From a virus (taxonomy: Duplodnaviria > Heunggongvirae > Uroviricota > Caudoviricetes), in the IMG/VR virus record IMGVR_UViG_2695420564_000005, positions 1 to 6,368 of that record: DNA of 6,368 nucleotides; one strand, given 5' to 3'. Shown here one piece after another: positions 1-272 of this stretch. The first letter of the stretch is position 1. The number at the start of each line of letters is the position of its first letter. A program made the position numbers and the translations under genes. Under the pieces are notes generated by a model, which made no database searches, was not told the DNA's origin, and worked only from the letters and a program-made list of their open reading frames with translations.

Positions 1-1
1 C

Positions 2-166
2 ACGCGCTGGGGAGCGGATACGGTGATGGATCTCTCCACCGGTCGCTATATTCACGAAACCCGCGAGTGGATTTTGCGTAACAGCCCGGTGCCGATCGGT
101 ACAGTGCCGATCTACCAGGCGCTGGAGAAGGTTATCTTAATTGCTGATTATTTTGGGTTGCGGTAG
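2..166 (+). pseudogene. thiC: Internal fragment of phosphomethylpyrimidine synthase ThiC; runs off the 5' edge of the window, homology ends near nt 133, stop at 164-166
   Basis: Frame-2 translation [44 protein letters not shown] matches a conserved internal ThiC block; it then becomes [10 protein letters not shown] and hits TAG at 164-166. No start codon in the window. Confidence 0.6.
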
Positions 167-272
167 CATAGATTCCGCTAGCGTCAGCATACTTAACAGG
201 CCCTTAATTAGGTTTACGACTTATTGAAATGCGGAATTTCCCGCAATTCCTTTATTGCAGTGATACACAAGC

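What the first reader, a model, noticed from the sequence alone, without database searches (positions are those of the whole stretch)
1..272. thiC internal fragment directly upstream of setC, where the selC tRNA would be expected
The window opens inside a ThiC-coding frame whose conserved sequence stops near nt 133 and reaches a stop at 164-166, only about 107 bp before the setC start. In E. coli K-12, as I recall, setC lies next to the selC tRNA (a well-known island integration hot spot) and thiC is in a distant operon. No tRNA-like sequence is present in 134-272. Possible explanations are a large rearrangement or deletion, an island-mediated event at selC, or a chimeric assembly. The codons after the homology end (ATT GCT GA...) still look partly thiC-like, which would suggest a decaying pseudogene rather than a clean join, though that comparison is against thiC codons recalled from memory.
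Basis: partly seen in the sequence, partly recalled or inferred. Interest (0 to 1): 0.45.

Follow-up and report, generated by a model that had tools for sequence, protein, structure and literature searches.

The report
Chimeric join, not a thiC–setC locus
The thiC fragment next to setC is real sequence, but it is one of three abrupt mid-gene joins that stitch four unlinked pieces of E. coli-type and Escherichia albertii DNA together, so the window is most likely a chimeric or concatenated sequence and not a biological rearrangement.

Summary
The sequence facts are confirmed. Bases 1-134 are an internal piece of thiC (nt 777-910 of 1896), 100% identical to E. coli K-12. The frame stops at 164-166, setC starts at 273, and no tRNA is present. 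The context changes the reading. From base 134 to 2348 the window is collinear, at 99.9% identity, with Escherichia albertii chromosomes (139 bp upstream of setC, setC, and the first two thirds of yicL). It is only about 79% identical to E. coli setC. So the join is clean, and the "thiC-like" codons after it are native E. albertii intergenic DNA. The window has two more joins of the same kind. At 2348/2352, yicL is cut at codon ~201, followed by a 3-nt AAA filler and the interior of a lambdoid prophage. At ~6285, the prophage antirepressor gene is cut at codon ~116 and followed by the 3' end of a non-E. coli lptE. The six breakpoints checked against native references lie inside collinear sequence. 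There are no repeats, IS ends, att sites or tRNA at the joins, and no junction was found in any public collection searched. The best explanation is an artefactual chimera from assembly, library preparation or concatenation. Interest is low.

The parts
1..134 (+). Segment 1: internal fragment of thiC (nt 777-910 of 1896; codons ~260-304 of 631), E. coli-type allele
   Evidence: 134/134 identical to K-12 and to thousands of E. coli genomes; Pfam ThiC_Rad_SAM
134..135 (.). Join J1: thiC interior to E. albertii setC upstream region; 1-nt overlap (A134)
   Evidence: Parental sequences compared in register; 30-mer across the join absent from viral, genome and metagenome collections
135..272 (+). Native E. 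albertii intergenic DNA upstream of setC (start of segment 2, which spans 134-2348)
   Evidence: 99.5-99.95% identity over 134-2348 to ten E. albertii-type loci, all starting at exactly the same base; two of the source genomes named E. albertii in papers
273..1457 (+). setC-type MFS sugar efflux transporter gene, E. albertii allele, intact
   Evidence: Exact protein found in 144 blocks of the collection, including E. albertii 1551-2; MFS_1; about 79% nt identity to E. coli setC
1747..2348 (+). yicL (EamA transporter), 5' part only, cut at codon ~201 of 300
   Evidence: Gene call in E. albertii loci; collinearity ends at 2348; EamA domain
2349..2351 (.). Join J2: three bases (AAA) that come from neither parent
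   Evidence: E. albertii has CCC here and the prophage has TTT; 31-mer across the join absent from metagenome and viral collections
2352..6285 (+). Segment 3: interior of a lambdoid prophage late region: nanS-p-type esterase (2383-4233), class II holin (4526-4732), YdfR/DUF1327 (4737-5081), lysozyme (5132-5665), antirepressor ANT 5' half (5939-6285, cut at codon ~116 of 231)
   Evidence: 99.92-99.95% identity over all 3934 bases to loci L012-L016, and 98.6% to the best E. coli genome; Pfam domains; native prophages are collinear across both ends
6286..6368 (+). Segment 4: 3' end of lptE (codons ~157-185 of 193), non-E. coli allele; join J3 at about 6283-6288 with up to 3 nt (AAA) of possible overlap
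   Evidence: 82-84% identity to E. coli lptE, with no E. coli genome above 90%; alignment and translation; 31-mer across the join absent from viral contigs

Best explanation
The window is not one native stretch of a genome. It is an artefactual chimera: four unlinked pieces of DNA joined end to end. The pieces are an E. coli-type thiC interior, E. albertii setC-yicL', the interior of a lambdoid prophage, and the 3' end of a non-E. coli lptE. The thiC/setC adjacency is simply the first of the three joins. How the pieces were joined cannot be told from the sequence. Candidates are ligation or template-switch chimeras in a library made from mixed E. coli and E. albertii DNA, a mis-assembled long-read contig, contigs concatenated without spacers, or deliberate concatenation. 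What is shown: the segment boundaries, the provenance of segments 1-3, the arbitrariness of the six breakpoints that could be checked, and the absence of mobile-element signatures. What is inferred: that the joins are non-biological.
For: (1) There are four segments, and three of them match unlinked native loci at 99.9-100%: 1-134 thiC, 134-2348 E. albertii, and 2352-6285 prophage. The fourth, about 6286-6368, is lptE. (2) The six breakpoints that could be checked fall inside sequence that is collinear in all native references. These are thiC nt 910 of 1896, the setC upstream region, yicL codon ~201, and both prophage ends, one of them inside ANT. The lptE piece starts at about codon 157 of the E. 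coli gene. (3) The joins are blunt: a 1-nt overlap, a 3-nt filler and an overlap of at most 3 nt. No direct or inverted repeats, IS ends, tRNA or RNA families lie at them. (4) The composition is mixed-species. Segment 1 is 134/134 identical to K-12. In 7.5 kb of syntenic housekeeping genes, E. albertii is 88.2% identical to K-12, and none of about 9,500 coding 134-nt windows is identical (maximum 132/134). Segment 2 is 99.9% E. albertii and only about 79% E. coli. (5) No junction was found in any public collection searched: J1 in the viral, genome and metagenome collections, J2 in the metagenome and viral collections, and J3 in the viral collection. No E. coli complete genome covers more than 49% of 1-272. 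The fused YicL'-NanS-p ORF is not on record among 153 billion gene positions. (6) lptE is known to be essential, so a 5'-truncated lptE fused to phage DNA could not be the only copy in a living cell.
Against: No reads or assembly metadata are available, so the joins cannot be shown directly to lack read support. Typical de Bruijn mis-assemblies join at shared k-mers, which is not seen here, so the artefact would have to be a ligation, long-read or concatenation type. E. albertii thiC and lptE DNA could not be retrieved, so the species of segments 1 and 4 rest on inference. Bacteria do carry out microhomology-poor end joining at low frequency.
Confidence: 0.85

Rival explanations
1. The mosaic is genuine. 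A real replicon, for example a decaying prophage region in an E. albertii-like strain or a packaged transducing DNA, acquired an E. coli thiC fragment, a second copy of setC-yicL' and an lptE fragment through three recent illegitimate (end-joining) recombination events.
For: The joins have 0-3 nt of overlap and one short filler, as alternative end joining produces. Lambdoid phages are mosaic. The yicL'-nanS-p join happens to be in frame and gives an 833-aa ORF. Segments 2 and 3 both have their best matches in assemblies of one WGS series, with accession prefixes JASWDS and JASWDT.
Against: It requires three independent, very recent events within 6.4 kb, since each segment is still 99.9-100% identical to its source. 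All of them fall inside genes or conserved intergenic DNA, and none sits at a phage module boundary or island boundary. It mixes alleles of two species. No other genome or metagenome carries any of the joins. An in-frame fusion is expected by chance about 1 time in 5.
Confidence: 0.08
2. One reading: a rearrangement or island-mediated event at the selC hot spot placed a thiC copy next to setC, and that copy is now decaying as a pseudogene.
For: setC does lie downstream of selC, with island remnants (rhuM, P4-type integrases) between them in both E. coli and E. albertii. There is a 9/17 base resemblance to thiC just after the join.
Against: Bases 134-272 are the native E. albertii setC upstream sequence, so thiC shows no decay and ends cleanly. 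There is no tRNA-Sec, att repeat, integrase or IS at the join. The breakpoint is inside DNA that is collinear in all ten E. albertii references and lies about 130 bp inside the conserved block, so it is not an island edge. The thiC piece shows no divergence from K-12. This reading does not account for the other two joins.
Confidence: 0.03
3. thiC is natively adjacent to setC in this lineage, giving an ordinary gene order with a full-length thiC upstream.
For: None found. The window starts inside thiC, so the upstream part is not visible.
Against: thiC stops at nt 910 of 1896 and is not full length downstream. All E. albertii loci have rhuM/selC-island DNA upstream of setC, and K-12 has selC-rhuM'. 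None of 5,426 E. coli genomes shows the adjacency.
Confidence: 0.01

Closest known systems
Chimeric contigs or reads (ligation or template-switch chimeras, mis-joined or concatenated contigs)
   Same: Unlinked loci are joined abruptly at arbitrary positions. Each piece is near-identical to a known source. The species are mixed. No biological junction signatures are present. The junctions are unique to this sequence.
   Different: No shared k-mer or repeat lies at the joins, unlike typical short-read graph mis-assemblies. No adapter or N spacer is visible. One join carries an unexplained AAA filler.
selC-associated genomic islands (for example LEE or SHI-2 type islands inserted at tRNA-Sec next to setC/yicK)
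   Same: The neighbourhood is the same: setC-yicL lies downstream of selC, with rhuM and P4-type integrase islands in the E. albertii references.
   Different: The window holds none of the island hallmarks (tRNA-Sec, att repeat, integrase). The break is about 130 bp inside DNA conserved in all references, so it is not an island edge.
Host-DNA capture by lambdoid phages (specialised transduction, moron acquisition upstream of the lysis genes)
   Same: Chromosomal DNA abuts the nanS-p/holin/lysozyme late region, the zone where Stx phages carry morons.
   Different: The captured DNA would be truncated genes from two species plus an essential-gene fragment. The phage part is itself cut at both ends inside collinear sequence, and no att site or phage module boundary is involved.

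Membership tests
Functional thiC gene (phosphomethylpyrimidine synthase, Pfam ThiC_Rad_SAM) | Full-length ORF of about 631 aa covering the radical-SAM core and the C-terminal Fe-S cluster motif | tested here: not met
   Only nt 777-910 of 1896 are present before the join, and only profile positions 86-127 of 420 are matched. The frame then runs 10 foreign codons to a stop.
Decaying thiC pseudogene | Residual, degraded thiC homology continuing beyond the well-conserved part | tested here: not met
   Identity is 134/134 up to the join. Beyond it the sequence matches native E. albertii setC upstream DNA (134-2348 is 99.5-99.95% identical to the ten loci). The 9/17 chance matches to thiC lie in that DNA.
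selC (tRNA-Sec) genomic-island junction | tRNA-Sec gene or its 3'-end direct repeat (att) at the boundary | tested here: not met
   No tRNA, no Rfam hit, and no direct repeat at the joins.
selC (tRNA-Sec) genomic-island junction | The breakpoint coincides with the point where related genomes diverge (the island edge) | tested here: not met
   Ten E. albertii loci remain collinear with each other for at least 127 bp, and nine of them for at least 460 bp, upstream of the breakpoint.
IS/transposon-mediated rearrangement | Terminal inverted repeats, target-site duplication, or a transposase gene at the junction | tested here: not met
   No such repeats. No transposase among the ORFs or Pfam hits.
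Lambdoid prophage late (lysis) module | Collinear nanS-p-type esterase, class II holin, DUF1327/YdfR, lysozyme and ANT genes | tested here: met
   Pfam domains DUF1737+SASA+DUF6645, Phage_holin_2_1, DUF1327 and Phage_lysozyme. 99.95% collinear with prophages in L012-L016. This applies to segment 3 only, which is truncated at both ends.
Artefactual chimera | Each segment matches a distinct unlinked native locus, with breakpoints interior to that locus | tested here: met
Artefactual chimera | The junctions lack support from independent sequences | tested here: met
   Exact junction 30/31-mers were absent from every collection searched: J1 from viral, genome and metagenome; J2 from metagenome and viral; J3 from viral. 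The fusion ORF is not on record.
Artefactual chimera | No raw reads span the junctions at normal depth | not testable with these tools
   The source reads and assembly are unknown.

The most novel reading that the evidence does not exclude
The three joins are real. A single replicon or packaged DNA molecule carries an E. coli thiC fragment, E. albertii setC-yicL', a prophage lysis block and an lptE fragment. These would have been stitched together by homology-independent end joining, which would record recent scrambling of DNA between species in an enteric bacterium or phage particle.
Probability: 0.06. Interest if true: 0.5.

Novelty: not a real feature. Interest (0 to 1): 0.08.

Why it matters
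As biology it matters little. Its practical value is as a quality flag. Any annotation of this window would be an artefact of the joins, including a truncated thiC, an 833-aa YicL-NanS fusion protein and an antirepressor-LptE fusion, and none of these should be propagated. If the joins were nevertheless confirmed by reads, the window would be an unusual record of multi-break end joining between two Escherichia species.

Tried and rejected
(1) I looked for the source contig through the fused YicL'-NanS-p ORF, using starts at 1732 and 1747. It is not on record. (2) Exact junction searches all found nothing: J1 in viral, genome and metagenome collections; J2 in metagenome and viral; J3 in viral. 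(3) I tried to fetch E. albertii thiC with K-12 ThiC against one genome per species. I replaced it with a calibration on 7.5 kb of syntenic E. albertii and K-12 genes. (4) I tried to assign the lptE piece to a species. A hybrid LptE query returned 120 cluster representatives, none with the window's C-terminal sequence. The species of segment 4 therefore remains untested, beyond the fact that no E. coli genome matches it above 90%. (5) I checked the joins for restriction-site scars by eye. thiC has GTTAAC (HpaI) at J1, but the partner end has no matching site, so I rejected this. (6) I searched for repeats, target-site duplications and inverted repeats around the joins and found nothing. (7) I tested for microhomology or patchy homology at J1. 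There are 13/31 matches downstream (post-hoc P about 0.03) and 4/29 upstream, which is not convincing. (8) I asked whether the prophage ends sit at natural module boundaries. They do not.

Full report
Observation. The window opens in the ThiC reading frame. Bases 1-134 are 134/134 identical to thiC of E. coli K-12 and at least 99% identical in 3581 of 5421 complete E. coli genomes. They correspond to nt 777-910 of the 1896-nt gene and match Pfam ThiC_Rad_SAM positions 86-127 of 420. The frame runs on for ten codons to TAG at 164-166, and a 394-aa MFS transporter ORF starts at 273. ARAGORN finds no tRNA and Rfam finds no RNA family in the whole window.

What follows the join. No E. coli genome matches 135-1500 by megablast. 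In sensitive mode, E. coli setC is only about 79% identical. The exact SetC protein is encoded in many 4.6-4.9 Mb chromosomes. Two of these are named in papers as Escherichia albertii: CP025317 is strain 1551-2 (PMC5834326) and CP099910 is a migratory-bird isolate (PMC9861504). BLAST of the window against ten such loci gives one ungapped block, window 134-2348, at 99.5-99.95% identity. The block starts and ends at the same base in all ten. It contains 139 bp of native setC upstream DNA, setC, the intergenic region, and yicL up to codon ~201 of 300.

The 'thiC-like' bases after the join. K-12 thiC continues AACGGGATCGCCGAAGAT, while the window continues ATCTTAATTGCTGATTAT. That is 9 matches in 17 bases, with a post-hoc P of about 0.01. 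The join is clean, with a single shared A at position 134. There is no decaying pseudogene.

selC. In K-12, selC ends 636 bp upstream of setC, with a rhuM remnant between them. In E. albertii loci L002, L003 and L006, tRNA-Sec ends 2.1-3.0 kb upstream of setC, with rhuM and sometimes a P4-type integrase between them. selC would therefore not lie in 134-272 even in an intact genome. All ten E. albertii loci are collinear with one another for at least 127 bp upstream of the breakpoint, and nine of them for at least 460 bp. The break is therefore not at an island or att boundary.

Two more joins. Window 2352-6285 (3934 bp) matches the interior of a lambdoid prophage late region. Identity is 99.92-99.95% in loci L012-L016 and 98.6% in the best E. 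coli genome. The block holds a nanS-p-type esterase (DUF1737+SASA+DUF6645), a class II holin, YdfR/DUF1327, a lysozyme, and the first ~116 of 231 codons of an ANT antirepressor. Between yicL (ending at 2348) and this block lie three bases, AAA, where E. albertii has CCC and the prophage has TTT. The native prophages are collinear with each other across both ends of the block, so neither end is a phage module boundary. After 6285 the window switches to the 3' end of lptE (LPSIRAADIRSDEE..., codons ~157-185 of 193). This piece is 82-84% identical to E. coli lptE, and no E. coli genome exceeds 90%. lptE is known to be essential, so a 5'-truncated copy fused to phage DNA cannot be a cell's only copy.

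Junction anatomy. J1 has a 1-nt overlap, J2 has a 3-nt filler, and J3 has at most 3 nt of possible overlap. No direct or inverted repeats, target duplications, IS ends or transposase genes accompany any join.

Two species. As a calibration, I aligned 7.5 kb of syntenic housekeeping genes (trmH-recG-gltS-xanP-yicH) from an E. albertii locus to K-12. Identity is 88.2%. None of 7,330 sliding 134-nt windows in that block is identical, the maximum being 132/134 and the mean 118/134. None of the other coding blocks has an identical window either. Only the selC tRNA region does. Within thiC itself, divergent 'E. coli' strains differ from the window at 6-8 of 134 positions and Salmonella at 12. A 134/134 match to K-12 therefore indicates an E. 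coli-type allele, next to DNA that is 99.9% E. albertii and about 79% E. coli. This step is an inference, not a direct test.

Independent support for the joins. None was found. The J1 30-mer is absent from the viral, one-genome-per-species and metagenome collections. The J2 31-mer is absent from the metagenome and viral collections. The J3 31-mer is absent from the viral collection. No E. coli genome covers more than 49% of 1-272. The 833/828-aa YicL'-NanS-p fusion ORF created by J2 is not on record.

Conclusion. Four pieces are butt-joined within 6.4 kb. Each of the three that could be traced is still 99.9-100% identical to its unlinked source. The six breakpoints that could be checked against native references are interior and arbitrary. 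Two species are mixed, mobile-element signatures are absent, and the junctions are otherwise unknown. This pattern fits an artefactual chimera: a ligation or template-switch chimera from mixed DNA, a mis-joined long-read contig, or contigs or segments concatenated without spacers. My confidence is about 0.85. A genuine triple end-joining mosaic cannot be excluded without reads (about 0.08). The selC-island or pseudogene reading and a native thiC-setC adjacency are effectively refuted.

Not resolved. The exact process that made the joins is unknown. The species of the lptE piece was not determined (searches gave no exact match). Neither the AAA filler nor the fact that A residues sit at all three joins is explained.

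Noticed in passing
window 1732-4233: The yicL'/prophage join happens to be in frame. It creates an 833-aa ORF that fuses the first ~201 residues of an EamA transporter, through an 11-residue linker, to a complete NanS-p-type sialate esterase (DUF1737+SASA+DUF6645). A gene caller would report it as one novel multidomain protein, but it is a product of the join.
   Followed up: yes
window 134, 2349-2351, 6283-6285: All three joins involve A residues: a single shared A, an untemplated AAA, and a possible AAA overlap. This could be a trace of the joining process, such as tailing or filler, or it could be coincidence.
   Followed up: partly
GenBank MG065686.1 and MG065691.1 (Campylobacter phages A18a and A11a), hits H111/H112: These two 174-kb 'Campylobacter phage' records contain about 1.9 kb that is 80% identical to enterobacterial setC-yicL. 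This is unexpected for a Campylobacter phage and suggests contamination or mis-assembly in those records.
   Followed up: no
L008 5517-7148 (E. albertii CP099914.1, selC island upstream of setC): A 543-aa reverse transcriptase with a TIR domain (RVT_1 + TIR) sits in the P4-like island between selC and rhuM. It looks like a defence gene carried by a selC satellite or island.
   Followed up: no
L001-L004, L008 and L009, about 13200-20300 (E. albertii, downstream of yicS): In six of the ten E. albertii loci, yicS is followed by a cluster with a TPR chaperone, an SseC-like translocator, a T3SS_TC protein and a Trans_reg_C regulator, and then a giant invasin/intimin-like gene. In the other four loci, yicS is followed by yicN (DUF1198)-adeQ as in K-12. 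nlpA, which separates yicL and yicS in K-12, is absent from all ten.
   Followed up: no
window 273-2348 compared with K-12: E. albertii setC, yicL and yicS are only 79%, 83% and 72% identical to K-12. The flanking recG-yicH block is 88% identical and selC is 93-94%. The genes just downstream of the selC hot spot therefore diverge faster than their surroundings.
   Followed up: partly
L012-L017, the ~800 bp upstream of the nanS-p gene: In its native prophage context, nanS-p is preceded by a TerB-domain gene (110 aa) and, in most of these loci, a DUF3927 gene (55 aa), with a DNA methyltransferase further upstream. No stx genes are present.
   Followed up: no
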